A DNA stretch of 64,000 nucleotides from assembly GCA_965242705.1 (NCBI GenBank), contig OZ251486.1, positions 719,806 to 783,805 of the forward strand. The letters run 5' to 3'. A program made the translations under genes and the position numbers. Each line of letters begins with the position of its first letter. The stretch's first letter is position 1. A model generated the notes under the pieces. The model did no database searches and was not told the origin of the DNA. It was given only the letters and a program-made list of their open reading frames with translations. The stretch is from Bryobacterales bacterium. Its GTDB lineage: Bacteria; Acidobacteriota; Terriglobia; Bryobacterales; UBA6623. Positions 1 through 38,583 of the stretch are shown here, piece after piece.

Positions 1-8
1 CCGGCTGC

Positions 9-1136
9 ATGTCGCGCCACCGGGAGCCCGAATCGGGCGCGGACGCCCCCGCCGCGCTCGACGTCCACGCGAAACGCGGCGCGCGCGCTGGCCGCGTCGA
101 GTTGGCCGACGGCAAAGACCCTTGGGAGTACTGTTACGAGCACGGCTTTGCCGACCCGCTGCCGGTCGTGCCGCCGACTGCTGAGCGGGTCGAGCGAATG
201 ATCGCGGCGGCCGGCCTGCCGCCCGAAGATATCGTTGCCCGCGTGCCGCCGAATTTCGGCGCGGCGACGGTTGAGAAAATCGCCGCCAACGCGGTCATGG
301 CCGGCTGCCGGCCGGAGATGATGCGCGTACTCATTCCGCTGACGCGCGCCCTGTGCGACGAGCGGCTCGATATCCACGGCGTGCAGGGAACGACGCATTT
401 CGCCGCGCCGCTGGTCGTCGTCAACGGCCCCGTGCGCGGGCGCCTCGGCTTCGCCTCGGGCAGCAACGTCTTCTCGAACACGGCGCGCGCGAACTCGACG
501 CTCGGACGGGCAGCGCAGCTTGCGCTGCGCAATCTGGGCGGGGCCGTTCCCGGCGAAATCGACATGTCCACTCTGGGCAACCCTGGCAAATTCAGCTACG
601 TCATCGCCGAAAACGAGGAAGCCAGCCCGTGGGCGCCACTGTGCGCCGACTTCGGCATCGACCCCGCGCGAAGCGCGCTGACGCTGTATTGCTGCGAGCC
701 GCCGCGGGGTATCAGCGAGCATGCCGCGCGCGCCGCCGCCGTGCTGCTGCGCGCGTTCTGCCCCGTGCTGGCCAATCTCTGGAGCCGCCGCGTCTGCCGC
801 GCGCCGGAGGCGCTGGTGGTCATCGGCCCCGAGCACGCCGCGACGCTCAAACGCAGCGGCTTCACCAAAAACGACGTCATCGATTATCTCTACGAGAACA
901 CCGGCATCCCGCTGCACGAATACGACGGCGACGGCGGCGAAGGCGTAAAGGCGGCAGAGCGCTACGAGGAGTGCCTTATCCGCGGCGTGCGCTGCTATCG
1001 GAAATTCAACGGCCCGGAATCGATTCGCATCATGGTTGCGGGGGGCCCGGCGGGGAAATTTTCGGCCGTGCTCGGTTCCTGGCAGACGGGCCGGCGCGGC
1101 AGTCAGATGGTCTGTTATCCGATCGACGACGAATAG
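9..1136 (+). CDS. conserved hypothetical protein (375 aa, 11 Cys), immediately upstream of the selenoprotein candidate
   Basis: Long ORF with non-repetitive, host-like composition. It stops at TAG 1134-1136, and a GGAAGG lies a few nt before the next ATG at 1152. I recognise no named family motif. The frame is open to the window edge, so the true start may lie upstream. Confidence 0.6.
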   Translation: MSRHREPESGADAPAALDVHAKRGARAGRVELADGKDPWEYCYEHGFADPLPVVPPTAERVERMIAAAGLPPEDIVARVPPNFGAATVEKIAANAVMAGCRPEMMRVLIPLTRALCDERLDIHGVQGTTHFAAPLVVVNGPVRGRLGFASGSNVFSNTARANSTLGRAAQLALRNLGGAVPGEIDMSTLGNPGKFSYVIAENEEASPWAPLCADFGIDPARSALTLYCCEPPRGISEHAARAAAVLLRAFCPVLANLWSRRVCRAPEALVVIGPEHAATLKRSGFTKNDVIDYLYENTGIPLHEYDGDGGEGVKAAERYEECLIRGVRCYRKFNGPESIRIMVAGGPAGKFSAVLGSWQTGRRGSQMVCYPIDDE

Positions 1137-1151
1137 GGAAGGAACAAACGC

Positions 1152-1688
1152 ATGGCAACGGTCCTGGTCAATCCACTCGACGAGCAGGCGCGCCCCGAGG
1201 CGAGTCCCGCGCCGCGTCTCGACACGCTGCAGGGCAAACGCCTGGCGCTGCTCGACATCAGCAAGCCAGGCGGCTCGATATTTCTCGATCGCCTGGAGGC
1301 GCTGCTGACCGAACGGTACGGGGCAGCGAGCATCCTGCGAATCGCCAAGCCCACGTTCGCCAAGCCCGCGCCCAGCGAAGTGCTGGCGAAAATCCGCGAG
1401 GCGCAGGTCCATGCGGCGGTCGAAGCGCTGGCCGATTGAGGCTCCTGCACGACGTGCAGTTTGCACGATTCGATACGGCTTGAAGCCATGGGCATCCCGA
1501 CAGCGCCGGTCGCTACCGACGTTTTCCGCACCGCCGCGCGGGCGCAGGCCGCCGGGTTGGGCCGGCCCGATTACGAAGCGGTGTACGTCGCTCATCCGAT
1601 TCAGGATCGAACCGCCGATGAAATCCGGCAGCGGGCGGACGGCGCCGCGTCGGAAATTGTGCGCCGTCTGACCGACGGTTTTGTGTAG
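1152..1688 (+). CDS. selenoprotein candidate (178 aa with UGA=Sec at 1437-1439), motif U-G-S-C-T-T-C, 'UGSC family'-like
   Basis: ORFs 1152..1439 and 1461..1688 share a frame and the only stop between them is TGA 1437-1439. Read-through gives ...VEALAD-U-GSCTTCSLHDSIRLEAMGIPTAP.... The downstream piece has no ATG or RBS of its own. A hairpin lies at SECIS distance. Confidence 0.7.
1450..1472 (+). promoter_or_regulatory. candidate bacterial SECIS hairpin
   Basis: The upper stem CGTGCA (1453-1458) pairs with TGCACG (1462-1467), with loop GTT at 1459-1461 about 20 nt after the UGA. A lower stem CGA/TCG follows a 2-nt bulge. An alternative overlapping hairpin is CTGCAC-GAC-GTGCAG at 1445-1459. 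Judged by eye; not folded. Confidence 0.45.
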
Positions 1689-1731: not shown

Positions 1732-2919
1732 ATGGAAACACCTACGGAAAAACTCCTTCAGCCATTCAAAATCCTGGTCGTGGACGACGAGCCGGACGTC
1801 GAACGTCTCGTGCGCCAACGCATGCGCCGGGACATACGTTCCGGGCGCTACAGCTTCGTTTTCGCCGGCAACGGCATCGAAGCGCTCGACGTGCTGGCGC
1901 AAAGCCAGGACATCGACATGGTGCTCTCGGATATCAACATGCCGCAGATGGACGGCCTCACCTTGCTGGGGCAGATCCCGAGCGTCAACCCCAACATCCG
2001 CGCCGTGATCGTTTCGGCCTATGGGGACATGAAGAACATCCGCACGGCCATGAACCGCGGCGCGTTCGATTTCATCACCAAGCCGATCGACTTCGACGAT
2101 ATGCGCATCACCATCGAGCGGACGCTGCGCAATCTGGCCATCTGGCGCGAAGCTCTTTCGTCGCGCGACAAGCTCGTCGCGCTGGAGAGAGAGCTGGGCA
2201 TCGCCCGGCAGATGCAGTTGTCGATCCTGCCCACGCGATTCCCTGTCGCCGCGGGCTACGAGGTGTTTGCCAACATGCAGCCCGCCCGCGCCGTCGGGGG
2301 CGATTTCTACGACGTGCTGCAACTCGAGGCAGGCCGCATCGGCTTGGCTATCGCCGACGTTTCCGACAAGGGGGTGCCGGCCGCCCTTTTCATGATGTCC
2401 AGCCGTACGCTGCTGCGCGGCGCCGCCATCGGCTGCAGAGACCCCGGAGACGTGTTGAAGGAAGTCAACAACATGCTCGTCTCGAACAACGAGTCGATGA
2501 TGTTCGTAACCGTTTTCTACGCGATTTTCGATCCCGTGAACGGAACCCTCACGTATGCCAACGGCGGCCATAACGAACCGCTTCTCGTCCATGCCGACGG
2601 CAGTTCGGAGCTGCTCCCCCCGACCGGAGGGGTCGCCGCGGGCGTGATGTCCGATTTCCAGTACAATTCCGGGAGCGTGAGGCTGTCCGCCGGCGATGCC
2701 GTCGTGCTCTACACCGACGGAGTGACCGAGGCCATGAACCCCAACGATGAGGAGTACGGCGTCGAACAGCTGCTCCGATTGTTCGCGGAGGGGCCTCGCC
2801 CGAGCGCGAAACAGACGAACGAAGCCGTCTTCCAAGCGGTGAGCGAGTTCGCGGAAGGCACCGCCCAGTCCGACGACATTACCTGCCTGACTCTCCATTA
2901 CAAAGGGGCCGCGGCGTGA
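1732..2919 (+). CDS. response regulator receiver domain fused to a PP2C/SpoIIE serine phosphatase (RsbU-like)
   Basis: N-terminus KILVVDDEPDV...DMVLSDINMPQMDG is a REC domain. The C-terminus has GGDFYDV and IADVSDKGVPAALFMM, which are SpoIIE/PP2C motifs. Confidence 0.9.
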   Translation: METPTEKLLQPFKILVVDDEPDVERLVRQRMRRDIRSGRYSFVFAGNGIEALDVLAQSQDIDMVLSDINMPQMDGLTLLGQIPSVNPNIRAVIVSAYGDMKNIRTAMNRGAFDFITKPIDFDDMRITIERTLRNLAIWREALSSRDKLVALERELGIARQMQLSILPTRFPVAAGYEVFANMQPARAVGGDFYDVLQLEAGRIGLAIADVSDKGVPAALFMMSSRTLLRGAAIGCRDPGDVLKEVNNMLVSNNESMMFVTVFYAIFDPVNGTLTYANGGHNEPLLVHADGSSELLPPTGGVAAGVMSDFQYNSGSVRLSAGDAVVLYTDGVTEAMNPNDEEYGVEQLLRLFAEGPRPSAKQTNEAVFQAVSEFAEGTAQSDDITCLTLHYKGAAA

Positions 2920-3350
2920 GCGAGAAACTGGTTCTGCGCGTCGAACCGCAATTGGCCGCCCTGGAGAAGATCAATGCCGCCGCCGAGGAGTTCGGCCGCG
3001 CGGCGAACTGGTCTGACGATCTTGTCTTCCAGGTCTGTCTGGTTCTTGAAGAGGTCGCGGTCAACATCGTCAAACACGGATACGGCGATGCGCAATCGTC
3101 CGGCAGCCGCGAGGCGATCGAAATCTCCCTGTCGTCGCAACCGGGCAATCTCAAGATCGAGATTACCGACGGCGGCCGAAGCTTCAATCCATTGACGGAA
3201 AGCCCCGAACCCGATCTGGACGCGAAACTCGAAGACAGGCCCATCGGCGGACTGGGCGTATATCTGGTGCGCACCATGATGGACACGATGGACTATCGGC
3301 GCAGCGACGGCAAAAACCATTTGACCTTGACCAAGCGGACGGGCGGATGA
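2916..3350 (+). CDS. anti-sigma regulatory factor type serine kinase (RsbW/SpoIIAB-like, HATPase_c_2)
   Basis: EEVAVNIVKHGYG (N-box-like) and IGGLGVYLVRTMMD (G-box-like). The GTG start overlaps the upstream TGA (GTGA at 2916-2919). Confidence 0.8.
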   Translation: MSEKLVLRVEPQLAALEKINAAAEEFGRAANWSDDLVFQVCLVLEEVAVNIVKHGYGDAQSSGSREAIEISLSSQPGNLKIEITDGGRSFNPLTESPEPDLDAKLEDRPIGGLGVYLVRTMMDTMDYRRSDGKNHLTLTKRTGG

Positions 3351-4522
3351 TGCGCGCGCCGAGACTGTTTCCCATCCTGCTGTTCGCGGCGATCTGCGCG
3401 GCTCTGTCCGCCCGCGCGGCTGACGTGGGGGTTTTCGACGACCGCGTTGTTTTCGGCCAATCCGCGGCGTTCAGCGGTCCCGCCGCGGACCTGGGCAGCG
3501 ACCTCCGACTCGGCATCGAGGCGGCGTTTCAGGAGGCCAACAGGCGCGGCGGCGTCCACGGGCGCAAGATCGAGTTGATTTCTCTCGACGACGCCTACGA
3601 GCCGGAGCTGGCTATTGCCAACACGCGCAAATTGATCGAAGAAGATCGGGTGTTCGCTCTGATTGGCGCCGTCGGCACGCCGACGTCGCGCTCAGCCACG
3701 CCGCTCACCGAGAGCGCGGGCGTGCCCTACATCGCGCCTTTCACCGGCGCGGCCTTTTTGCGCGATGCCCTGCGCTGGAACGTAATCAACCTGCGCGCCT
3801 CGTACGACCAGGAGACCGAAGAAATCGTCGCCCGCCTGACCGGCGACTTGGGCATCGACCGCATCGCCATCCTGTACCAGGACGATTCCTTCGGCCGGGC
3901 AGGCTTGCAAGGCGTCCGCAAGGCGCTCGACCGGCGCAAGATGGAGATGGTGGCCATGGGCTCGTATGTGCGCAACACGACGGCCGTAAAATCGGCGCTG
4001 CTCGATCTGCGCGCCGGGAACCCCCAGGCCGTTGTGCTGATCGGCGCCTACAAGCCGGTCGCGGCGCTGATTTCGTGGGCGCGAACCCTCGATTTCAATC
4101 CTGTTTTCGTAACGATTTCCTTCGTCGGCAGCTACGCGCTGGCCAAAGAGTTGGGCGCCGACGGATACGGCGTTTTCGTGACTCAGGTAGTGCCTTTCCC
4201 AACCGCCGACCTGCCCGTCATCTCCACTTACCGCCGGGCGCTGGCATCCCGCTCGCGCAAATCTTCTCCGGGTTTCGTCTCTCTGGAAGGCTATCTGGCC
4301 GGACGCTTGGCGGTCGTCGGCTTGCAGCGCAGCGGTCGAGAACTGACTCGAGACAGTTTCATCGCCAGTCTGCGCAGCGATGAAACGATCAGCATCAACG
4401 GATTCAGGCTGCGCTACGGCGAAGCGGACAACCAAGGGTCGAATTCCGTCTTTCTCACGATGATCGACGGCAGCGGAAACTATAAACCGATCCGCACCCT
4501 GACGGACGGAATAAAACCGTGA
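3347..4522 (+). CDS. periplasmic substrate-binding protein, type 1 (LivK/branched-chain amino acid binding-like)
   Basis: Signal peptide MMRAPRLFPILLFAAICAALSARA. The core VVFGQSAAFSGPAADLG...LIGAVGTPT is typical of the Peripla_BP_6 family. ATGA overlap with the upstream gene. Confidence 0.8.
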   Translation: MMRAPRLFPILLFAAICAALSARAADVGVFDDRVVFGQSAAFSGPAADLGSDLRLGIEAAFQEANRRGGVHGRKIELISLDDAYEPELAIANTRKLIEEDRVFALIGAVGTPTSRSATPLTESAGVPYIAPFTGAAFLRDALRWNVINLRASYDQETEEIVARLTGDLGIDRIAILYQDDSFGRAGLQGVRKALDRRKMEMVAMGSYVRNTTAVKSALLDLRAGNPQAVVLIGAYKPVAALISWARTLDFNPVFVTISFVGSYALAKELGADGYGVFVTQVVPFPTADLPVISTYRRALASRSRKSSPGFVSLEGYLAGRLAVVGLQRSGRELTRDSFIASLRSDETISINGFRLRYGEADNQGSNSVFLTMIDGSGNYKPIRTLTDGIKP

Positions 4523-6783
4523 TCGATCTATTCCATCGCTTGGCGCAGGCCGGCAAGCGCATCGCCGGACAACATCTGTTGAAGCGCCTGCTGCAAGCGG
4601 GCCGGAGCATCGCCGAGCACCCCCTGCTGAAACGTCTGCTGCAGGCGCGTCAACGCATCGCCGGGCAGCTCTATCTCGGGCTGGGCGGGGCGGTCGCGGT
4701 CACCGTGGGCGCCAGTCTGGTCGCCTGGATATCGTTCAACCGCATGGGCGACGCCCAGAGCGAAGTGAACGAGGGCAGCGTTCCGGAAATGGCCGCCGCG
4801 TTCGGAATCACGCAGCAAATCGGCGCGCTGGTGGCCGCGGCTCCGCGCCTGACGACCGCCGCCACACCGCAAGAACTCGCCGAGGTCACCGCAGAAATCG
4901 GAGCGGAGCGGAGCGCCTTCGAAGACCGCCTCGATGAGCTGGTGCATGGCGGCGAAGACCAGGAATCGCAGCGTTTCACGCGCATCATCGCCGAAAGCCG
5001 GGCGCTGATTCTGAACATCGACTCCATTGAAGACTCGGTCACGGAACGCTTCAATCTGGCCGCCCGCAGCGAAACCTTGCGCGCCGAGCTGGGGCAGTTG
5101 CAACTCGCCCTGGAAGAGATCATGGTCCCTTCCATCGACAATCAGTTCTTCTATGCCATGACCGGCTACCGCGACCTCGGCGAGCAGCCTGCTCCGCGCG
5201 GACTGCATTTCCGCGAAGACCAAGTCAACCGCTACCGCCACATGACCGAGTTGCACGCCGACGCCACCATTGCCACGCAACTCATGACCAGCGCCTTCAA
5301 CCTTTCGGACCTGCTCCTGCTCGAGCCATTGCGGGAACGTTTCGAAGCGGCCGTAGGCAGGATTGAGCGGCGCCTTGCGGCTCTCGACGGGACCCGGGCG
5401 TCAAAGGAAACCGCCCCGAAATTCGACCGTCTGATCGAACTGTGCCTCGGCGATGAGGGAGGGTTCGCTCTGCGCACGCAGGAACTCGAGCTTGCCGAGC
5501 AGCAACGCAATCTGCTTGCGCGCAATCGGGAACTCGCGCTCTATCTCGTCCTCGGGGTCGAAAGTCTCGTCAGCGCCGCGCGCGGGAACGCGGATGCGGC
5601 AACGCAGGCGTCCGCCGAAGCGATCCAGACCGGACGGGTCCTCCTGCTCGTGCTGAACGGGGTCAGCATCGTCGGCGCAGTGCTGATCGCCTGGTTGTTC
5701 ATCGGCCGAGTCCTGCTGCGCCGTCTCGACCTGCTCTCGGGCTGGATGCGCCGCATGGCCGGGGGCGACCTGCATGCCAAGGTCGAGATCGGAGGGCGCG
5801 ACGAAGTCGCGGACATGGCCGCGGCACTCGAAATCTTTCGCCGTCAGGCGCTGGAGGCCCAACGCCTGAACCTTGTCGAAAAACTGGCCGAAGAACTGCG
5901 CGGCAAGAACGACGAGCTCGAGTCCGTGCTGACCGATCTACGCCGCGCCCAGGATCAGATCGTCACGCAGGAAAAACTGGCGGCGCTCGGCGAGCTCACC
6001 GCCGGCGTGGCCCACGAAATCAAGAACCCGCTGAACTTCGTGAAAAACTTCTCCGAGGTATCCGGCGAGCTGATCGAAGAATTGCAGGAGACGCTGCAGC
6101 AAGGAGAAGAGCAGTTGACCGACGATCAGCGCGAGGAAGTTCGCGAGATCTGCACGGACCTGACCGAAAACCTCAACTGCATCCGCGAACACGGCGACCG
6201 CGCCAACCGCATCGTCCACGACATGCTCATGATGGGCCGCGACTCGGGCAACCGCATGGAAGTCGATATCAACACCCTGATCAAAGACAATGCGCTGCTC
6301 GCCTTCCACAGCGCGCGGGCGACCGATTCGAATTTCATCCTCGATATTCAGGAAGACTTCGACCCGCAGGTGGGCATGGTCGAAGTCGTTCCGCAGGAAA
6401 TCGGCCGCGTCGTCCTCAACATGGTCAGCAACTCCTGCCACGCCACCGACGAGAAGCGACAGGCCGTGGACGGTAATGAGCCTTATTCGCCCGTGCTGCG
6501 GCTGACAACCAAGCGCACCGAAGAAGGCCGCGTCGAAATCAGCGTCCGCGACAATGGAAACGGCATTCCCGCCGAAGCCATCGACAAGATATTCAACCCG
6601 TTCTTCACGACGAAACCGACGGATCGGGGCACAGGGCTCGGGCTTTCGATGTCCAACGACATCGTGCGCAAGCACGGCGGGAACATCCGCGTCAAGTCCG
6701 AGCCCGGCAGCTTCACCGAAATGACGATCGATTTGCCCGCGAAGGCTCCCGATGCGGAAGCTCCCGCGGCGGAGCAGGCTTAA
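4519..6783 (+). CDS. sensor histidine kinase with two TM segments, a large periplasmic region and a HAMP domain
   Basis: H-box AHEIKNPLNF. ATPase motifs DNGNGIP and GTGLGLS. A HAMP-like segment (RRMAGGDLHAKVEIGGRDEVADMAAALE) follows the second hydrophobic stretch. The GTG start overlaps the upstream TGA. Confidence 0.9.
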   Translation: MIDLFHRLAQAGKRIAGQHLLKRLLQAGRSIAEHPLLKRLLQARQRIAGQLYLGLGGAVAVTVGASLVAWISFNRMGDAQSEVNEGSVPEMAAAFGITQQIGALVAAAPRLTTAATPQELAEVTAEIGAERSAFEDRLDELVHGGEDQESQRFTRIIAESRALILNIDSIEDSVTERFNLAARSETLRAELGQLQLALEEIMVPSIDNQFFYAMTGYRDLGEQPAPRGLHFREDQVNRYRHMTELHADATIATQLMTSAFNLSDLLLLEPLRERFEAAVGRIERRLAALDGTRASKETAPKFDRLIELCLGDEGGFALRTQELELAEQQRNLLARNRELALYLVLGVESLVSAARGNADAATQASAEAIQTGRVLLLVLNGVSIVGAVLIAWLFIGRVLLRRLDLLSGWMRRMAGGDLHAKVEIGGRDEVADMAAALEIFRRQALEAQRLNLVEKLAEELRGKNDELESVLTDLRRAQDQIVTQEKLAALGELTAGVAHEIKNPLNFVKNFSEVSGELIEELQETLQQGEEQLTDDQREEVREICTDLTENLNCIREHGDRANRIVHDMLMMGRDSGNRMEVDINTLIKDNALLAFHSARATDSNFILDIQEDFDPQVGMVEVVPQEIGRVVLNMVSNSCHATDEKRQAVDGNEPYSPVLRLTTKRTEEGRVEISVRDNGNGIPAEAIDKIFNPFFTTKPTDRGTGLGLSMSNDIVRKHGGNIRVKSEPGSFTEMTIDLPAKAPDAEAPAAEQA
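4528..4671 (+). repeat. three imperfect tandem 48-bp (16-aa) repeats encoding the kinase N-terminus
   Basis: The units are LFHRLAQAGKRIAGQH / LLKRLLQAGRSIAEHP / LLKRLLQARQRIAGQL, directly before the first TM segment. Confidence 0.8.
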
Positions 6784-19078: not shown

Positions 19079-19151
19079 ATGTGCGCGGCAACACTTATTG
19101 TAGCGCCTCGCGTACCGGGAAGGGCGCTCCATGCGTCATAATGGTGGACTT

Positions 19152-20192
19152 ATGAGAATCCTGCTGCGTTCCGCCCTGCTGCTGGGCGCTTCCTCCATGC
19201 CTTTCGTTGCGGCGGAGTTGCCGACCGGCCCCGATGCGGGCGAAACGATCCCCGCGTTCGAAGCGGTCGATCAGACCGGCGCGAAACGAACCTTCGAGAA
19301 CCTCGCCGGGCCGAACGGCTTGCTGCTGCTCTTCTACCGCTCGGCCGACTGGTGACCGTTCTGCAAAGGCCAACTAGTTCAGTTGGAGCGCAAGCGCGAA
19401 GACTTCGCGGCCAAAGGCGTCAACGTCGCCGCTCTCAGCCACGACAACGTCGAGATCCTCAAGCACTTCGCCGCCAGAACGGGCATCGGCTACCCGCTGC
19501 TCTCCGACCCCGATTCCGCGGTCATCCGCGCGTTCGGCATCCTCAACGAGACGGTTCCCGAAACCCATCGGTTTTTCGGCGTGCCGGTTCCCGGCGAGTA
19601 TCTCATCGGCCCCGACAGGGTTGTCCGCGAAAAGTATTTCGAAGACAACTACCGCGACCGGTTTACCGCCGGCCGGGTGCTCGTGCGAACGCTGGATGCC
19701 GAAGCCGGCGCCGCTCGGCAAACGGCGGAAACAGCGCATCTGCGGATCGTTTCCTGGGCAAGCGACGCGGCTGTCCGCGGCGGCAACCGGTTTTCATTGG
19801 CGCTCGACATCGACTTGAAGCCCAAAATGCACGTCTATGCGCCGCGGGTCGAGGGCTATATCCCAATCGATTGGCAGATCGAAGACGCCGCCGGCGTAAC
19901 CCGTTACGACGTCGAGTATCCCGCATCGAAAGCGCTGCATCTGCCCGCCATCGGCGAAACGGTTCCCGTTTATGAAGGTTCGTTCCGGCTGCTGACCGAC
20001 GTGATGATCGGGCAGCCCAACGAGATCGAGCACTTGCTCGACGCAGACGGCCGTCTGACGCTGCGCGGGTCTCTCAAATACCAGGCCTGCGACGACAAGA
20101 TCTGTTACTTGCCGGAGTCCGTGCCGCTGGAGTGGACGCTGGATTTCGAGCAGCACGACCGCCAACGGGCGCCGGAAGCGCTGCGGCGCTAA
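19152..20192 (+). CDS. exported selenoprotein candidate: redoxin/peroxiredoxin-like domain with W-U-P-F-C fused to a DsbD-N-terminal-like domain (UGA=Sec at 19353-19355)
   Basis: ORFs 19131..19355 and 19383..20192 share a frame, joined only by TGA. Read-through gives LLLFYRSADW-U-PFCKGQLVQLE, where TGA sits at the first Cys of a WCxxC thioredoxin-fold motif. The C-terminus has KYQACDDKICYLPE. Signal peptide MRILLRSALLLGASSMPFVAAE. Confidence 0.75.
19370..19386 (+). promoter_or_regulatory. candidate bacterial SECIS hairpin
   Basis: CCAACT-AGTTC-AGTTGG is a perfect 6-bp stem. The 5-nt loop contains GU and lies 21-25 nt after the UGA. Not folded computationally. Confidence 0.4.
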
Positions 20193-34082: not shown

Positions 34083-34673
34083 ATTCCCGCTATGGTAGCC
34101 TTCGGTTTGGGCGGAGCCCGCCCGGGAAATTTATTGGAGGGCATCAACCATGCGCGAAGGCGGCGCCGGCGTCTGAATACGGGCGTTACAGGCTTCGCAG
34201 CGGTGCATGATACCGTCGCCGCTTTCATTGGCGTTGCCGTCAGCATAGTTCTCGCTGCCCGCCGGTTGAGACGCCAACGCAAGCTCGCTGCTCAACGCGC
34301 AGCGCTGGACCTCATCTCCAGATTCGAGATACGCAACCAGCGTTGGGTGGAGCTTCGATAACGAATTCGTTGCTCTGCGCAGCAAAAACGACTTGGGGCC
34401 GCTTGCGAATGCCTCAAGGAGGCTATACCCGTGCTTGGAACGACGCCCGCGCGTTTGTAGCTGACATGCGGCAGATGCGAAAGAATTCTAATCTTTTCAA
34501 GCATTTCGAGGAATTAGCCAAGAAATGGAACAACGAGAGGCGGCGTAGAGAATCCCAGTCGTAAAGACCGCCCCAACCCGGGTATTTCGATACAACGGTG
34601 CGGCCGCACGGTTTTCGAAGTCCGCGTTGCGCCGCGGCGCGCGCAGATACTACATTGTCAGGAACCGCCCGGC

Positions 34674-35471
34674 ATGGAATTCGCCCGCATCGACGACGTC
34701 GTGCTCAGCTTTCGACGGGACGGCCCGCGCGCGGCGCCGGCGCTCGTCTTCGCGAACTCGCTGGGAACCGATTACCGCATCTGGGACGATACGGTCGAAG
34801 CGCTGGGCGGCCGCTTCCATGCCGTGCGTTACGACAAGCGCGGCCACGGCCTATCGAGTTGGCCCGCCGCGGAAGCCTGCACGATCGCCGACCACGCCGC
34901 AGACTTGGCGGGACTGCTCGACCTGCTGGGCATCGAGCGGGCCGTCGTGTGCGGCCTTTCGATTGGAGGAATGATCGCGCAGCAGCTTGCCGCGGACCGT
35001 CCCGGCCTCGTGCGCGCGTTGATTTTGTGCGGCACGGCGGCGGCAATCGGTCCGCCGGAAATCTGGGATGCGCGCATCCGTCAGGTGCGCGAGACGGGAC
35101 TCGCGCCGCCGGCGGAGACGATCCTCGAACGCTGGTTCGGCGCAACCTACCGCCGCCGCCATGCGCAACAGTTGGCGGGCTGGGCGGCCATGTTGAGCCG
35201 CGTCCCGCCGGAAGGCTATATCGGCTCGTGCGCGGCCCTGCGCGACGCCGACCTGACCGCCTCGACGGCGGGGCTGCGCATACCGGCGATGTGCGTTTGC
35301 GGCTCGGAGGACACGCCCACTCCGCCGCACGCGGTCCGTTCGCTGGCGGCTCTGATCCCCGGCGCGCGCTTCGAGACGATCGAGGGCGCCGGCCATCTCT
35401 CATGCATCGAAAACCCCGCCGATCTCGCGGGTCTCATCGCCGACTTCGCGGAGGAACACAACCTTGTCTGA
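34674..35471 (+). CDS. pcaD: 3-oxoadipate enol-lactonase
   Basis: Alpha/beta hydrolase (VFANSLGTDYRIWD, GLSIGG nucleophile elbow), directly coupled to pcaC. Confidence 0.85.
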   Translation: MEFARIDDVVLSFRRDGPRAAPALVFANSLGTDYRIWDDTVEALGGRFHAVRYDKRGHGLSSWPAAEACTIADHAADLAGLLDLLGIERAVVCGLSIGGMIAQQLAADRPGLVRALILCGTAAAIGPPEIWDARIRQVRETGLAPPAETILERWFGATYRRRHAQQLAGWAAMLSRVPPEGYIGSCAALRDADLTASTAGLRIPAMCVCGSEDTPTPPHAVRSLAALIPGARFETIEGAGHLSCIENPADLAGLIADFAEEHNLV

Positions 35472-35865
35472 CGACCGATTCGCCAAAGGCATGAAAGTCC
35501 GCCGCGAAGTGCTCGGCGACGCCCGCGTGGATCGCGCCCAAGCGCGCACGACGGACTTCGACGAAGCATTCCAGCGCTACATTACGGAATCGGCTTGGGG
35601 CGCCGTCTGGGATCGCCCCAATCTCGACCGGCGAACGCGCAGCCTGATCACCATCGCGCTGCTGGGCGCGCTGGGCTGCCGCGAAGAGTTGCAGATGCAC
35701 GTCCGCGCCGCGCGCAACACGGGCGCCTCGCCGCAAGAGACGGCCGAAGCGCTGTTGCACGTCGCGGTCTATGCCGGCGTCCCGGCAGCCAACCGGGCTT
35801 TCGCCGCGGCCAAAGAAGTTTACGAAGAGATGGGGATACCTACCCGCGAAGGCGGCGCGCCATGA
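35464..35865 (+). CDS. pcaC: 4-carboxymuconolactone decarboxylase
   Basis: GMKVRREVLGDARVDRA...ESAWGAVWDRPNLDRRTRSLITIA is the CMD family signature. TTG start with an 8-nt overlap with pcaD. Confidence 0.85.
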   Translation: MSDDRFAKGMKVRREVLGDARVDRAQARTTDFDEAFQRYITESAWGAVWDRPNLDRRTRSLITIALLGALGCREELQMHVRAARNTGASPQETAEALLHVAVYAGVPAANRAFAAAKEVYEEMGIPTREGGAP

Positions 35866-36584
35866 GCACAGACGAGCAAGCCGCCGAGAAAATCGGCCCC
35901 CGCGATTGGGCGATCCATCCGCCTTATCTCTATCTGCCCTACCGCTCGACGGAGTTCCGCGCGCCGAGCAAGCCGCTGGTTCCGGCGGCGCAAACGATCT
36001 CGGAACTGACGGCCCCCGTTTTCGGCGAAAGCGCAATCGGCGCGCTGGACAACGATCTCACCCGAAACGCCGCCAAACACGGCGAAGCGCTGGGCGAGCG
36101 CATCGTCGTCAGCGGGCGCGTGCTGGAAGAAAACGGCCGCCCCGTGCGCGGCGCGCTGATGGAAATCTGGCAGGCCAACGCGGCCGGGCGCTACCTGCAC
36201 GTCAACGACGGGCGCGATGCGCCGCTCGACCCCAACTTCCACGGCGCGGGGCGCTGCCTGACCGACGATGACGGCGCCTACAGCTTTACGACCATCCGCC
36301 CGGGCGCCTACCCGTGGCGGAACCACCCGAACGCCTGGCGGCCGGCGCACATCCACTTTTCGTTGTTCGGCAATGCCTTCGCCGCCCGGCTGGTGACGCA
36401 GATGTACTTCCCCGGCGACCCACTGCACGCTGCGGACCCCGTGCTGCACTGCGTGCGGGACGAAGCCGCCCGGCAGCGGCTCGCGGCGCGTTTCTCGATG
36501 GAGAAAACAGAGCCGGAGCGGGCGTTGGGCTTCGAGTTCGACATCGTATTGCGCGGGCCGCGAGCCACGCCGCTGGAAAGCTGA
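35862..36584 (+). CDS. pcaH: protocatechuate 3,4-dioxygenase beta subunit
   Basis: IWQANAAGRY...RPAHIHFSLFG. ATGA overlap with the pcaC stop. The track ORF from 35595 is over-extended. Confidence 0.9.
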   Translation: MSTDEQAAEKIGPRDWAIHPPYLYLPYRSTEFRAPSKPLVPAAQTISELTAPVFGESAIGALDNDLTRNAAKHGEALGERIVVSGRVLEENGRPVRGALMEIWQANAAGRYLHVNDGRDAPLDPNFHGAGRCLTDDDGAYSFTTIRPGAYPWRNHPNAWRPAHIHFSLFGNAFAARLVTQMYFPGDPLHAADPVLHCVRDEAARQRLAARFSMEKTEPERALGFEFDIVLRGPRATPLES

Positions 36585-36588
36585 AACC

Positions 36589-37152
36589 ATGCTCAAGCAA
36601 ACGCCGTCGCAGACCGTCGGCCCTTTCTTCGCCGTCGCTCTGACGCCCGAAGACAGCGGATTCCAGCCCATCGCCGGCCGCGAATTGGCCGGCGGCGAGA
36701 CGCCCGGCGAGCGCATTCGCATCGAAGGCCGCGTACTCGACGGCCGCGGCGAGCCCGTCTCCGATGCGGTGATCGACCTCTGGCAGGCCGACTGCAAGGG
36801 CCGCTACCCGCGCGGCTCGGACGGCGGGGGGGCGTTCAGCGGTTTCGGCCGCTGCGCCGCGGACGCCGAGGGCAAGTTCCATTTCCTTACCGTGAAGCCC
36901 GGCCGGGTCGATGCTTTGCAGGCGCCCCATGCCGTGCTTGCGGTCTTTGCCCGCGGCCTGCCCAGCCATCTCTTCACGCGCATCTATTTTTCCGACGAGC
37001 CGGGCAACGCAACCGACCCCGTATTGTCAAGCGTCGATGCCGCAAGACGCGGGACACTGATAGGGCGGCGGCGCGAGACGCCGGGCGGCGCCGCATACCG
37101 CTTCGATATCCGCCTGCAGGGCGGCGCAGAGACGGTATTCTTCGACGTCTGA
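36589..37152 (+). CDS. pcaG: protocatechuate 3,4-dioxygenase alpha subunit
   Basis: MLKQTPSQTVGPFF N-terminus and DLWQADCKGRY, 4 nt after pcaH. Confidence 0.9.
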   Translation: MLKQTPSQTVGPFFAVALTPEDSGFQPIAGRELAGGETPGERIRIEGRVLDGRGEPVSDAVIDLWQADCKGRYPRGSDGGGAFSGFGRCAADAEGKFHFLTVKPGRVDALQAPHAVLAVFARGLPSHLFTRIYFSDEPGNATDPVLSSVDAARRGTLIGRRRETPGGAAYRFDIRLQGGAETVFFDV

Positions 37153-37260
37153 AGAGCGAGACGCCGATTTGCCGGACGGCGCCGGAGACACCGTGACCCA
37201 GCCTTTTGCAGAAAACTTTCGCGGAAAGCCGGCGGCGGCCGCGCCTCGCGGGGGCGGCGC

Positions 37261-38583
37261 ATGACTTCGGCTCCGTTCGGTTCGCGCCTGCTCGACGGCC
37301 TGCTCTCCGATGCGGAGACGAGCGCCTTGTTCACGGATCGGGCCGCGCTGGAAGCCATGCTGCAATTCGAGGCCGCCCTGGCGCGGGCCGAGGAGCGTTG
37401 CGGCGTGATCCCGCCGGGCTGCGCCGAGGCCGCCGCCGCCGCCGCGCGCGCTCTGGAGCCGGATATGGCCGTCCTCGCCGCGGCCGTCCGCCGGGACGGG
37501 CATCCGGTAACGGCGCTGGTGCGGCAACTGCGCGCCGCGGCGGGGCCGTTGGGGCAATACGTCCATTGGGGCGCGACTTCCCAGGACGCGGTCGACAGCG
37601 CGTTGGTCATCCGCCTGCGCGAGGCTCTGGCCGGCCTTGACGCGCGGCTGGAGAAAACCATCGCTCTGCTCTCGCAACATGCCGAGGCGCACCGCGCAAC
37701 GGTCATGGCCGGGCGCACCCGTTGGCGGCAGGCCGTGCCGATTTCCTTCGGACTGAAAGTCGCCGGATGGGCCGCGCCGCTCAAGCGCCACCGACGGCGC
37801 CTCGCCGAGTTGCGCCCGCGCCTGCTCGTCGTGCAGTTCGGCGGCGCCGCGGGCGCCCTCGCGGCGCTCGGCAACCGCGGGATCGCCGTAAGCGAAGCCC
37901 TGGCGAAGGAACTCGACCTCGGCCTGCCGCCGATGCCCTGGCATACCCAGCGCGACTCCTTCGGCGAGGCGGCCGCCTGGCTTGCCTTGGTGACGGCCTC
38001 GACCGGCAAAATCGGCCGCGACCTTGCGCTGCTGGCTCAAGACGAGATTGCCGAGGCGGACGACGGCAGCGGCGGCGGTTCGAGCACGATGCCCCAGAAG
38101 TCCAACCCCGTGCTCAGCGAAATCCTCGTCACGGCGGCGACGGTGAACGCCGGGCTGTCGGCGTCGATGCAACAGGCGGCGCTGCAGGAACACGAGCGGG
38201 GAGGCGCGGGCTGGACCGCCGAATGGCTGCTGCTGCCGCAAATGACGATCCTAGCCGGAACCGCCCTGCGCCATGCCGCAACCATTGCCGGCGCACTCGA
38301 CGTCCGCGTGGAAAAGATGCGGCGCAATATCGAAGCAGCGGGCGGGCTGCTGCTCGCCGAGGCCTCGGCATACGCGCTGGCCGCGCACATGCCGCTCGAA
38401 AAGGCGCAGGCGCTCGTTTCCCAGGCCTGCCGCGAAGCCTCGGCCTCGGGACGCGGCCTGATCGAAGTCTTGCGGGCTTCGTGCGCCGCCCCCGTCGATT
38501 GGGGCCGCCTGCGCGACCCGGTCAACTCTCTCGGCTCCGCGGACGCATTCATCAGCCGCGTACTCGAAGCGGAGGATCGATGA
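37261..38583 (+). CDS. pcaB: 3-carboxy-cis,cis-muconate cycloisomerase
   Basis: Fumarate-lyase superfamily signature GSSTMPQKSNP, in pca context. Confidence 0.88.
   Translation: MTSAPFGSRLLDGLLSDAETSALFTDRAALEAMLQFEAALARAEERCGVIPPGCAEAAAAAARALEPDMAVLAAAVRRDGHPVTALVRQLRAAAGPLGQYVHWGATSQDAVDSALVIRLREALAGLDARLEKTIALLSQHAEAHRATVMAGRTRWRQAVPISFGLKVAGWAAPLKRHRRRLAELRPRLLVVQFGGAAGALAALGNRGIAVSEALAKELDLGLPPMPWHTQRDSFGEAAAWLALVTASTGKIGRDLALLAQDEIAEADDGSGGGSSTMPQKSNPVLSEILVTAATVNAGLSASMQQAALQEHERGGAGWTAEWLLLPQMTILAGTALRHAATIAGALDVRVEKMRRNIEAAGGLLLAEASAYALAAHMPLEKAQALVSQACREASASGRGLIEVLRASCAAPVDWGRLRDPVNSLGSADAFISRVLEAEDR

What the first reader, a model, noticed from the sequence alone, without database searches (positions are those of the whole stretch)
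1152..1688. A single in-frame TGA joins two called ORFs into a 178-aa U-x-x-C-x-x-C selenoprotein candidate
**Seen in sequence**
- ORFs 1152..1439 and 1461..1688 are in the same frame. The only stop between them is TGA at 1437-1439.
- The seven codons between the TGA and the second ORF's TTG read GSCTTCS, so read-through gives ...AVEALAD-U-GSCTTC-SLHDSIRLEAMGIPTAPVATDVF...
- The distal piece has no ATG or Shine-Dalgarno of its own.
- A hairpin sits just downstream: a 6-bp perfect stem CGTGCA/TGCACG with loop GUU about 20 nt after the UGA, extendable by 3 bp across a 2-nt bulge. This is the position and general shape expected for a bacterial SECIS.

**From memory of families**
- U-x-x-C-x-x-C followed by ...E-x-x-GIP... 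resembles the Sec site of glycine/D-proline reductase B-type selenoproteins (as I recall, GrdB ...UGTCTRCGATMVKEIERAGIP...).
- I believe 'UGSC family (seleno)protein' is an existing but functionally uncharacterised family label.

**Inference**
- No grd or prd genes flank it, so this would be a GrdB-Sec-domain-like redox protein operating in an unknown context.
Basis: partly seen in the sequence, partly recalled or inferred. Interest (0 to 1): 0.8.

Follow-up and report, generated by a model that had tools for sequence, protein, structure and literature searches.

The report
Known UGSC selenoprotein, conserved redox partner
The two ORFs are one real selenocysteine-encoding gene of the already catalogued but functionally unknown UGSC family, and it always sits next to an unannotated thioredoxin-linked partner gene, which gives a testable lead to its function.

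Summary
ORFs 1152-1439 and 1461-1688 share a frame, separated only by TGA 1437-1439. With U read as C, the 178-aa product matches the curated UGSC models end to end (NCBIfam NF041046 149 bits, cutoff 125; Pfam PF24696 167.7 bits).

All 87 related loci fetched carry TGA at this codon. About 90% of full-length family representatives carry Cys there.

The 6-bp hairpin with GUU loop (1453-1467) is nearly invariant, even at synonymous sites.

UGSC has been published since 2007-2008, with unknown function, so this is a new member of a known kind.

Three additions:
- **Partner gene.** The upstream ORF is the edge-truncated end of a ~523-aa protein: a TlpA-like CxxC thioredoxin domain plus a ~375-aa domain with no family. 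It lies upstream in 76 of 78 evaluable loci, is fused to Cys-form UGSC in at least 11 clusters, and sits beside trxA/trxB in some cultured organisms.
- **Fold.** The UGSC model is flavodoxin-like, not thioredoxin-like.

A second Sec candidate lies at 19353.

The parts
3..1136 (+). 3' part (377 codons) of the partner gene, cut by the window's left edge. The full protein is about 523 aa: an N-terminal TlpA/ResA-like thioredoxin-fold domain with a CPxC motif (outside the window), a conserved linker motif PGC-x-S-R-H-x-E-P (window 1-35), and a ~375-aa 'domain X' with no known family.
   Evidence: Window bases 1-8 encode ..GC before MSRHREPESG, matching the interior of P0073 (96% identity, 523 aa). 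Domain X has no Pfam, NCBIfam or PDB-sequence hit. The N-terminal domain of homologs matches Redoxin/AhpC-TSA and folds like DsbE/ResA.
1137..1151 (+). 15-nt intergenic spacer containing the Shine-Dalgarno-like GGAAGGAA (1137-1144), 8 nt before the ATG. This supports an operon junction between the partner and UGSC.
   Evidence: Read directly from the sequence. The gap between partner and UGSC is -12 to +193 nt in 75 of 76 loci, and there is a 4-nt stop/start overlap in Rhodoplanes roseus.
1152..1688 (+). UGSC-family selenoprotein gene, 178 codons including Sec, ending at TAG 1686-1688.
   Evidence: NF041046 149 bits (cutoff 125), residues 27-174 against profile 1-147 of 147. PF24696 167.7 bits, residues 5-174 against 2-171 of 172. 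88% identical ortholog in a Bryobacterales MAG.
1437..1439 (+). UGA selenocysteine codon (residue 96). Redox motif U96-G-S-C99-T-T-C102, with C99 at 1446-1448 and C102 at 1455-1457.
   Evidence: TGA in 88 of 88 sequences. The column is Cys in about 90% of full-length representatives, and the U+3 Cys is nearly invariant.
1453..1467 (+). SECIS-type hairpin. Stem CGUGCA (1453-1458) pairs with UGCACG (1462-1467). The apical loop is GUU (1459-1461), i.e. +23 to +25 counted from the U of UGA.
   Evidence: The six pairs hold in 81-82 of 82 distinct sequences. Codon entropy is 0, 0, 0, 0.23 and 0.09 bits for the five codons forming it, against 0.56-2.2 bits in flanking conserved-residue codons. It uses rare AGU (3.3% of Ser codons) and UUG (15% of Leu codons); the joint probability is 0.0013. 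The 23-nt fold has z = -2.45.
1663..1679 (+). Weak terminator-like hairpin with a T-rich tail overlapping the stop codon.
   Evidence: The number of such sites in the region is not above shuffles (3 against 2.9), so this is only suggestive.

Best explanation
Shown:
- Bases 1152-1688 are one gene for a 178-aa UGSC-family selenoprotein.
- UGA 1437-1439 is positioned to be decoded as selenocysteine with the help of the hairpin at 1453-1467 (6-bp stem, GUU loop, about 20 nt downstream).
- The gene is the distal member of a conserved two-gene cassette. The proximal gene, cut by the window edge, encodes a cytoplasmic TlpA-like CxxC thioredoxin-fold domain fused to an uncharacterised ~375-aa domain X.

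Inferred:
- The U-x-x-C centre sits at the N-terminus of a helix in a flavodoxin-like alpha/beta domain. It cycles between selenol/thiol and selenenylsulfide.
- It passes reducing equivalents from a thioredoxin system (fused here, separate trxA/trxB elsewhere) to a reaction carried out on domain X.
- The logic resembles thioredoxin-dependent selenoprotein-B reductases, to whose Sec region UGSC is probably distantly related.
- The substrate is unknown.
For: Family membership: the curated HMMs span the TGA.

Sec decoding:
- TGA in 88 of 88 sequences from at least four lineages.
- Cys at that column in about 90% of full-length representatives.
- Truncated database entries end at ...ALAD.
- The hairpin is invariant at synonymous sites despite using rare codons.
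- A second in-frame TGA in the window (19353) lies in an AhpC/TSA active site with a similarly placed hairpin and a GUU loop core.

Cassette:
- The partner is upstream on the same strand in 76 of 87 loci, and 9 of the other 11 lack enough upstream sequence.
- These are the only two genes conserved among 32 loci of at least 5 kb.
- Rhodoplanes, Natrinema, Arthrobacter and Roseovarius Cys forms also pair with domain X.
- At least 11 clusters fuse UGSC to domain X.

Thioredoxin link:
- The N-terminal domain is ResA/DsbE-like.
- trxB-trxA-X-UGSC in Arthrobacter, X-UGSC-trxB in Roseovarius, and an NAD(P)/FAD oxidoreductase beside the fusion in Variovorax.

Fold: pLDDT 93.4, five beta-alpha units, with CxxC at a helix N-terminus.

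GrdB relation.
Against: - No selA, selB, selD or tRNA-Sec was found in the 64-kb window. The rest of the genome could not be searched.
- The hairpin shows no covariation because it does not vary. Its outer stem is partly forced by the conserved peptide, so Cys-form genes also pair at 3-6 of the 6 positions.
- The electron-flow order and any catalytic role of domain X are inferred from gene context only.
- Domain X's Cys248 is present in only 12 of 14 diverse members.
- The GrdB-model hits are sub-threshold (best E = 2.6e-5; 0.019 for the window protein). They could be inflated by the Cys-rich motif.
- Pfam GRDB is never hit.
Confidence: 0.85

Rival explanations
1. GrdB-like catalytic subunit. 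The selenol of UGSC is the nucleophile that attacks a substrate bound on domain X, as GrdB/PrdB Sec attacks the substrate bound on GrdE/PrdA. The resulting selenenylsulfide is then reduced by the thioredoxin-fold domain. The pair would be a two-component thioredoxin-dependent reductase for a small organic substrate.
For: - UxxCxxC is present in all 88 Sec forms and is the GrdB/F/H signature (PMC6778437, PMC13188914).
- There are recurrent collinear hits to GrdB, GrdF, GrdH and PrdB models (13, 10, 7 and 2 of 24 members).
- The Arthrobacter order trxB-trxA-X-UGSC recalls grd operons that include trxB and trxA (the grd operon layout is from my own knowledge).
- Cys-form loci sit among CoA transferases, lyases, amidohydrolases and TRAP/TTT/MFS transporters.
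Against: - Domain X has no detectable similarity to GrdE/PrdA or to any other family.
- No grdA, grdC or prdA gene lies in any locus.
- The third Cys is lost in most Cys forms.
- The hits are weak and may be driven by the motif.
Confidence: 0.3
2. Dedicated redoxin. UGSC is simply a specialised disulfide/selenenylsulfide reductant (or oxidant) that recycles a catalytic cysteine of domain X (Cys248 in AVMAGC). It would work in series or in parallel with the fused thioredoxin-fold domain.
For: - The U/CxxC sits at a helix N-terminus.
- In the fusions, UGSC occupies the position taken by the Trx domain in the window's partner.
- Cys248 is conserved in 12 of 14 members. The Trx CxxC and linker Cys148 occur only where UGSC is a separate protein.
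Against: - Cys248 is replaced by Ile or Ala in two fusion proteins.
- It is unclear why a Trx domain and UGSC would both be needed.
- The model is not a thioredoxin fold.
Confidence: 0.35
3. Metal, metalloid or chalcogen handling. The U-x-x-C-x-x-C cluster binds or traffics a metal or a selenium/sulfur species rather than shuttling electrons.
For: Three closely spaced Sec/Cys residues occur in the Sec subfamily. One fusion (P0282) has a weak NifU-like N-terminal hit, E = 0.008.
Against: The third Cys is not conserved family-wide (W 37, C 34, A 13 ...). No metal transporter or resistance gene is conserved nearby. The recurrent thioredoxin-system linkage points to redox chemistry.
Confidence: 0.08
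4. No recoding. TGA terminates translation, giving a 95-aa product. The downstream part is then a separate gene, a pseudogene remnant, or TGA is a sequencing error for TGC.
For: Gene callers cut the family at this codon. No Sec machinery was seen in the window.
Against: - The same TGA, the same frame and a conserved downstream peptide occur in 88 of 88 independent sequences.
- There is no start codon or Shine-Dalgarno sequence for the distal part.
- Cys-form homologs are continuous.
- Nucleotide-level constraint falls exactly on the hairpin.
- Other genes in the window end in TGA, so TGA is not a general sense codon here.
Confidence: 0.02

Closest known systems
UGSC family (seleno)protein (NCBIfam NF041046, Pfam PF24696; 'UGSC-containing protein' of Zhang and Gladyshev, PMC1976440 and PMC2398784)
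   Same: Full-length match above the curated cutoffs. The U-G-S-C motif is at the same column, Sec/Cys alternation is seen among homologs, the size is about 175-185 aa, and there is a coding-region SECIS.
   Different: Nothing essential differs: it is a member. The literature calls the fold 'likely Trx-like', whereas the AF2 model here is flavodoxin-like. The literature mentions a fusion to 'Unknown_1', but I found no description there of the near-obligate partner gene or the thioredoxin linkage.
Selenoprotein B of glycine/sarcosine/betaine/D-proline reductases (GrdB, GrdF, GrdH, PrdB; TIGR01917, NF040794, NF040795, TIGR01918, TIGR04483; Pfam PF07355)
   Same: A U-x-x-C-x-x-C motif. There are weak collinear profile hits of UGSC residues ~75-175 to roughly the last 100 positions of the B-protein models. 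Both are genetically linked to a thioredoxin system and partner with a larger second protein.
   Different: - Scores are far below the family cutoffs (12-20 bits against 65-800).
- PF07355 is never hit.
- UGSC lacks the ~320-aa N-terminal part of GrdB.
- No grdA/C/D/E or prdA genes are present.
- The partner domain X is unrelated to GrdE/PrdA by sequence.
- The hosts are aerobic soil and marine bacteria and haloarchaea, not amino-acid-fermenting anaerobes.
TlpA/ResA/DsbE/CcmG thiol-disulfide oxidoreductases (for the partner's N-terminal domain)
   Same: A thioredoxin fold with CPxC. Foldseek target TM is 0.7-0.8 and profile E-values reach 3e-12.
   Different: There is no signal peptide or membrane anchor, so it is probably cytoplasmic. 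It is fused to a 375-aa unknown domain, and it is replaced by UGSC itself in some relatives.
Bacterial SECIS elements such as E. coli fdhF (bSECISearch model of Zhang and Gladyshev 2005; cited from my own knowledge)
   Same: A hairpin inside the ORF immediately after UGA. The apical loop starts 19 nt after the UGA, with G then U as the first loop bases.
   Different: It is very short (6 bp, 3-nt loop) with no bulged U. There is no Rfam model to test against, and no covariation is available.

Membership tests
UGSC family (NF041046 / PF24696) | Whole-protein score above the curated cutoff with full-length coverage | tested here: met
   149 bits against a cutoff of 125, profile 1-147 of 147. Pfam 167.7 bits against 25, profile 2-171 of 172.
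UGSC family (NF041046 / PF24696) | U/C-G-S-C motif at the conserved column, with Sec and Cys forms both present in the family | tested here: met
   D-U-G-S-C in 88 of 88 loci. D-C-G-S-C in about 90% of full-length representatives.
Bacterial selenoprotein gene (Sec decoding) | In-frame UGA aligned with Cys in homologs, with the ORF conserved on both sides | tested here: met
Bacterial selenoprotein gene (Sec decoding) | SECIS hairpin a short distance 3' of UGA with G in the apical loop | tested here: met
   Stem +17 to +22 pairs with +26 to +31, loop GUU. It is intact in 81-82 of 82 sequences, with synonymous-site invariance confined to it. Caveat: the outer stem is partly dictated by the peptide.
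Bacterial selenoprotein gene (Sec decoding) | Compensatory base changes supporting the SECIS stem | tested here: inconclusive
   The pairs do not vary. The only changes are one G-C to G-U change and one mismatch, both in L007.
Bacterial selenoprotein gene (Sec decoding) | selA, selB, selC (tRNA-Sec) and selD present in the genome | not testable with these tools
   None was found in the 64-kb window. Indirect support comes from a second Sec candidate in the window.
Selenoprotein B (GrdB/GrdF/GrdH/PrdB) | Match to the family model at or above its cutoff (PF07355, TIGR01917, TIGR01918) | tested here: not met
   PF07355 is not hit at E <= 10 by the window protein or by any of 24 members. NCBIfam hits are 11-20 bits against cutoffs of 65-800.
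Selenoprotein B (GrdB/GrdF/GrdH/PrdB) | U-x-x-C-x-x-C following Sec | tested here: met
   U-G-S-C-T-[T/S]-C in 88 of 88 Sec forms. The motif is defined for GrdB/F/H in PMC6778437 and PMC13188914. The third Cys is variable in Cys forms.
Selenoprotein B (GrdB/GrdF/GrdH/PrdB) | Remote homology of the Sec-bearing region | tested here: inconclusive
Selenoprotein B (GrdB/GrdF/GrdH/PrdB) | Operon with grdA/grdE/grdC/grdD or prdA | tested here: not met
   Only UGSC and the partner are conserved in 32 loci. The partner has no hit to any Grd or Prd family.
Thioredoxin-fold redoxin (as suggested for UGSC in PMC2398784 and PMC13188914) | Thioredoxin fold | tested here: not met
   The AF2 model (pLDDT 93.4) has five consecutive beta-alpha units. 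The Foldseek top 50 are flavodoxin, TIR, CheY and lumazine synthase, with no thioredoxin-fold protein. This rests on a predicted structure of a Cys-form homolog that is 39% identical.

The most novel reading that the evidence does not exclude
UGSC plus domain X, fed by a fused or co-encoded thioredoxin system, is an uncharacterised and very widespread two-component thioredoxin-dependent (seleno)reductase. It would be distantly derived from the Sec module of clostridial selenoprotein-B reductases, but would operate in aerobic soil and marine bacteria and in haloarchaea on an unknown small organic substrate. Domain X would be a new enzyme family.
Probability: 0.3. Interest if true: 0.75.

Novelty: new member of a known kind. 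Interest (0 to 1): 0.38.

Why it matters
UGSC is one of the most abundant selenoprotein families in environmental metagenomes: 255 Sec genes in GOS, where it is the top family in several non-marine samples (PMC2398784). Reviews up to 2026 (PMC13188914) still list it without a function. This particular gene adds nothing new as a selenoprotein call, because annotation pipelines that use NF041046 should name it. The useful part is the context established here:
- a near-obligate partner with an unannotated 375-aa domain (over 4,700 homologs);
- its alternative fusion to either a thioredoxin-fold domain or UGSC itself;
- trxA/trxB linkage in cultured organisms that carry Cys forms;
- a possible distant tie to GrdB.
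Together these turn 'unknown function' into a concrete hypothesis that can be tested biochemically in culturable hosts (Rhodoplanes, Arthrobacter, Roseovarius, Natrinema).

Tried and rejected
- **RNA searches.** Folding 1437-1500 alone gave z = -0.11 and was uninformative. Rfam and ARAGORN found no tRNA-Sec or SECIS family in the window.
- **Pfam, NCBIfam and PDB sequence searches.** Pfam at E <= 10 gave no GRDB hit for the window protein or for 24 family members. PDB sequence searches for UGSC and for the partner, with single sequences and with profiles, returned only thioredoxin-fold hits to the partner's N-terminus. Relaxed Pfam and NCBIfam scans of seven diverse domain X proteins gave no family.
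- The alignment-based metagenome scan failed with A2 and worked with A3. Figure S1 of PMC2398784 (the UGSC/Unknown_1 fusion) is an image, so I could not prove that Unknown_1 is domain X.
- **Third conserved gene.** None was found.
- **SECIS negative control.** Using Cys-form genes as a control was only partly informative, because the peptide itself forces part of the stem.
- **Other TGA-joined ORF pairs.** For example 34518-35471 / 35472-36584 turned out to be adjacent separate genes, pcaD and pcaH.

Full report
**1. The observation**

ORFs 1152..1439 and 1461..1688 are in the same frame. Translating 1152-1688 gives one internal stop, TGA at 1437-1439, within ...AVEALAD-*-GSCTTCSLHD.... The distal piece begins at a TTG with no Shine-Dalgarno sequence. 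The proximal ATG at 1152 is preceded by GGAAGGAA.

The hairpin CGUGCA-GUU-UGCACG lies at 1453-1467. An overlapping alternative, CUGCAC-GAC-GUGCAG, lies at 1445-1459. Thermodynamics alone say little: the 64-nt fold has z = -0.11, and the 23-nt hairpin has z = -2.45.

**2. What the gene is**

With Cys substituted for the TGA, the 178-aa protein matches NCBIfam NF041046 'UGSC family (seleno)protein' at 149 bits (curated cutoff 125). It matches Pfam PF24696 at 167.7 bits. Both matches run end to end across the TGA.

A word-indexed search returned mostly 97-121-aa proteins that cover the N-terminal 52% and end in ...EALAD. These are gene calls cut at the same TGA.

Seven genomic loci all read D-TGA-GSCT[T/S]C. 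They come from:
- four Bryobacterales MAGs (88, 84, 69 and 68% identity);
- a Gemmatimonadota MAG;
- a marine TMED88 MAG;
- an alphaproteobacterial MAG.

Eighty metagenome loci do the same, so TGA is found in 88 of 88 sequences.

An exhaustive profile search found 2,881 cluster representatives. In a profile alignment of the best 149 representatives:
- the Sec column is Cys in about 90% of full-length forms;
- the U+3 Cys is nearly invariant;
- the U+6 position varies (W 37, C 34, A 13, S 7, Y 6, G 6).

The family motif is therefore U/C-x-x-C. The third Cys marks the Sec subfamily. Database entries with G or W at the Sec column (P0001, P0002, P0004) look like translations of TGA under alternative genetic codes.

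**3. The SECIS**

Counting the U of UGA as +1, the stem C17-G31 ... A22-U26 is intact in 81-82 of 82 distinct sequences. The loop is G23-U24-U25.

There is no covariation, because nothing varies. The constraint is nevertheless visible at synonymous sites:

| Codon | Usage | Entropy (bits) |
|---|---|---|
| Thr+5 | ACG 82/82 | 0 |
| Cys+6 | TGC 85/85 | 0 |
| Ser+7 | AGT 84/84 | 0 |
| Leu+8 | TTG 78/81 | 0.23 |
| His+9 | CAC 84/85 | 0.09 |
| Thr+4 (neighbour) | ACA 45, ACG 24, ACC 15, ACT 1 | 1.52 |
| Cys+3 (neighbour) | TGC 74, TGT 11 | 0.56 |
| Ser+2 (neighbour) | five different codons | 1.84 |
| Asp+10 (neighbour) | GAC 56, GAT 29 | 0.93 |

In this window's genes AGT is 3.3% of Ser codons and TTG is 15% of Leu codons. 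The joint probability of the five-codon series, given the peptide, is 0.0013.

One caveat. The outer stem (xCG-UG paired with CA-CG) follows from the peptide S/T-C...H-D with GC-rich codons. Cys-form genes therefore also pair at 3-6 of the 6 positions, and one haloarchaeal gene forms a 9-bp hairpin. The Sec-specific part is the inner stem plus the GUU loop.

The alternative hairpin at 1445-1459 is also compatible with the sequences. It cannot explain the fixation of U24, U25, G27 and C30.

The position (loop starting 19 nt after UGA) and the G-U at the start of the loop fit what I know of bacterial SECIS elements. That comparison comes from my own knowledge and was not tested here.

**4. Sec machinery**

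No tRNA-Sec was found in the window. No selA, selB or selD appeared among about 33 window ORFs scanned. The rest of the genome was out of reach.

There is indirect support. A second in-frame TGA at 19353-19355 lies in ...FYRSADW-U-PFC... of a signal-peptide-bearing AhpC/TSA + DsbD_N protein. The AhpC-TSA model scores 90.9 bits and spans the TGA. A 6-bp hairpin follows at +18 to +34 with loop A-GUU-C.

**5.

The '375-aa ORF' at 9..1136 is the 3' part of a gene cut by the window edge. Bases 1-8 continue the frame (..GC-MSRHREPESG), matching the interior of P0073 (96% identical, 523 aa).

Full-length homologs number 4,712 at E <= 1e-3 among 8,000 candidates scored. They have this layout:
- an N-terminal Redoxin/AhpC-TSA domain with CP[A/T]C;
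- a conserved linker motif, PGC-x-S-R-H-x-E-P;
- a ~375-aa domain X.

Domain X has no Pfam, NCBIfam or PDB-sequence match, even at relaxed thresholds and for seven diverse members.

The AF2 model of P0073 has pLDDT 83.6. Its N-terminal domain superposes on DsbE, ResA, StoA and CcmG with target TM 0.7-0.8.

Evidence that the two genes form a cassette:
- The partner lies immediately upstream on the same strand in 76 of 87 loci. Nine of the remaining 11 have under 600 bp of upstream sequence, and only L041 and L070 truly lack it.
- Among 32 loci of at least 5 kb, UGSC (32) and the partner (31) are the only conserved genes.
- At least 11 representative clusters (408-657 aa) fuse a Cys-form UGSC domain N-terminally to domain X, with E = 1e-39 to 1e-75. 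UGSC there takes the place of the Trx domain. This is probably the 'UGSC/Unknown_1 fusion' mentioned in PMC2398784, but that figure is not readable.

Cys-form genes in cultured organisms keep the pairing:

| Organism | Arrangement |
|---|---|
| Rhodoplanes roseus | Trx-like-X (481 aa, 33% identical, CETC) overlapping UGSC by 4 nt |
| Arthrobacter | phosphosulfolactate synthase - trxB - trxA - X - UGSC |
| Roseovarius | X - UGSC - trxB |
| Natrinema, Halorientalis | UGSC - X, among CoA transferase, lyase, DUF6282, amidohydrolase and transporter genes |
| Variovorax | NAD(P)/FAD oxidoreductase - TctC - UGSC::X fusion |

Domain X keeps an invariant polar set (D197, T205, N242, T277, N310, R315, D333, K342, E349, H424) and a mostly conserved Cys248 (12 of 14). 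The Trx CxxC and Cys148 exist only in the non-fused architecture.

The downstream genes (a response regulator with a PP2C/SpoIIE domain, and others) are syntenic only in the two closest MAGs.

**6. Fold, and the GrdB question**

The AF2 model of a Cys-form UGSC (P0020, alignment A5) has pLDDT 93.4. It consists of five beta-alpha units, with C-G-S-C at the N-terminus of the helix after strand 3.

Foldseek against PDB returns flavodoxins, TIR, CheY-like and lumazine synthase domains (TM 0.39-0.49). No thioredoxin fold appears. The literature's 'likely Trx-like fold' (PMC2398784, PMC13188914) is therefore not supported.

For the GrdB link, the evidence pulls both ways:
- Pfam GRDB is never hit.
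- NCBIfam scans at E <= 10 show that, after UGSC_fam, the next five families hit by 24 diverse members are all B-type selenoproteins: GrdB (13 members, best E = 2.6e-5), GrdF (10, 2.3e-4), the GrdB/PrdB superfamily model (8, 7.2e-4), GrdH (7, 4.6e-4) and PrdB (2, 3.3e-3).
- The register is constant. UGSC residue n aligns to profile position about n+250, from residue ~75 up to ~175, against profile 325-420 of 431.
- The window protein hits GrdF (E = 0.019, residues 75-124 against 330-378) and GrdH (E = 0.094).
- GrdB/F/H are defined by UxxCxxC after Sec (PMC6778437, PMC13188914).

I read this as probable distant homology of the Sec module. It is not family membership, and the scores may be inflated by the three Cys residues.

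**7. Mechanism**

Shown:
- one gene with a conserved UGA;
- a constrained hairpin;
- an obligate partner, sometimes fused;
- recurrent thioredoxin-system linkage.

Inferred: electrons pass from NADPH through thioredoxin reductase to a thioredoxin (free or fused), then to the U-x-x-C selenenylsulfide of UGSC and to chemistry on domain X. I cannot tell whether UGSC is the catalytic nucleophile (GrdB-like) or a dedicated reductant of a domain X cysteine.

**8. Verdict**

This is a genuine selenoprotein gene and a new member of a known, curated family whose function is unknown. It is ordinary as a selenoprotein call. It is moderately interesting for the cassette and the GrdB lead.

Noticed in passing
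window 19149-20192 (+), TGA at 19353-19355, hairpin 19370-19386: A second selenoprotein candidate. It is a signal-peptide-bearing AhpC/TSA peroxiredoxin-like domain with active site W-U-P-F-C, fused to a DsbD_N domain. The AhpC-TSA model (90.9 bits) spans the TGA. A 6-bp hairpin CCAACU/AGUUGG with loop A-GUU-C follows at +18 to +34, resembling the UGSC hairpin.
   Followed up: partly
window 1-1136 (+); P0073 and about 4,700 homologs: The ~375-aa 'domain X' of the partner protein matches no Pfam, NCBIfam or PDB-sequence family, yet it is very widespread. It has invariant motifs DxLPVxPPT, AxNAVxAG[C] and NxxIGRA. RefSeq calls standalone copies 'hypothetical protein' and fused copies 'TlpA disulfide reductase family protein'.
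   Followed up: partly
L095 (Halorientalis litorea plasmid) about 5190-5240; also L090 and L093: Cys-form UGSC genes of haloarchaea, which I believe lack Sec decoding, form strong hairpins at the position of the bacterial SECIS (9 bp, -11.1 kcal/mol in L095). This is either a by-product of the peptide with GC-rich codons or a fossil SECIS.
   Followed up: no
P0001, P0002, P0004 (ENA metagenome proteins): These full-length database entries carry Gly or Trp at the Sec column (ADGGSC, ADWGSC). They were probably produced by translating TGA under genetic codes 25 or 4, so these selenoproteins are silently mistranslated in public protein sets.
   Followed up: no
L041 (1218 bp upstream available) and L070 (731 bp upstream): These are the only two evaluable Sec-form loci without a partner gene upstream. 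A profile search of all six frames found no domain X.
   Followed up: partly
L090, L091, L093, L095 and the P0247 contig: Cys-form UGSC/domain X pairs recur beside phosphosulfolactate synthase, an adenylosuccinate-lyase-family protein, CoA transferase, CoA ester or HMG-CoA lyase, DUF6282, amidohydrolase and TRAP/TTT/MFS transporter genes. This hints at catabolism of a small organic acid or sulfonate.
   Followed up: no
window 1732-6783 (+): Downstream lie a response regulator with a PP2C/SpoIIE phosphatase domain, a 144-aa ORF, a 391-aa ORF and a 754-aa ORF that I took for a histidine kinase without testing it against any family library. They are syntenic only with the two closest Bryobacterales MAGs and are not part of the conserved cassette.
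   Followed up: partly
window 34518-38583 (+): A protocatechuate branch of the beta-ketoadipate pathway (pcaD, pcaH/G, pcaB). Several of these adjacent genes share a frame and are separated by single TGA stops. They mimic read-through pairs but are separate genes.
   Followed up: yes
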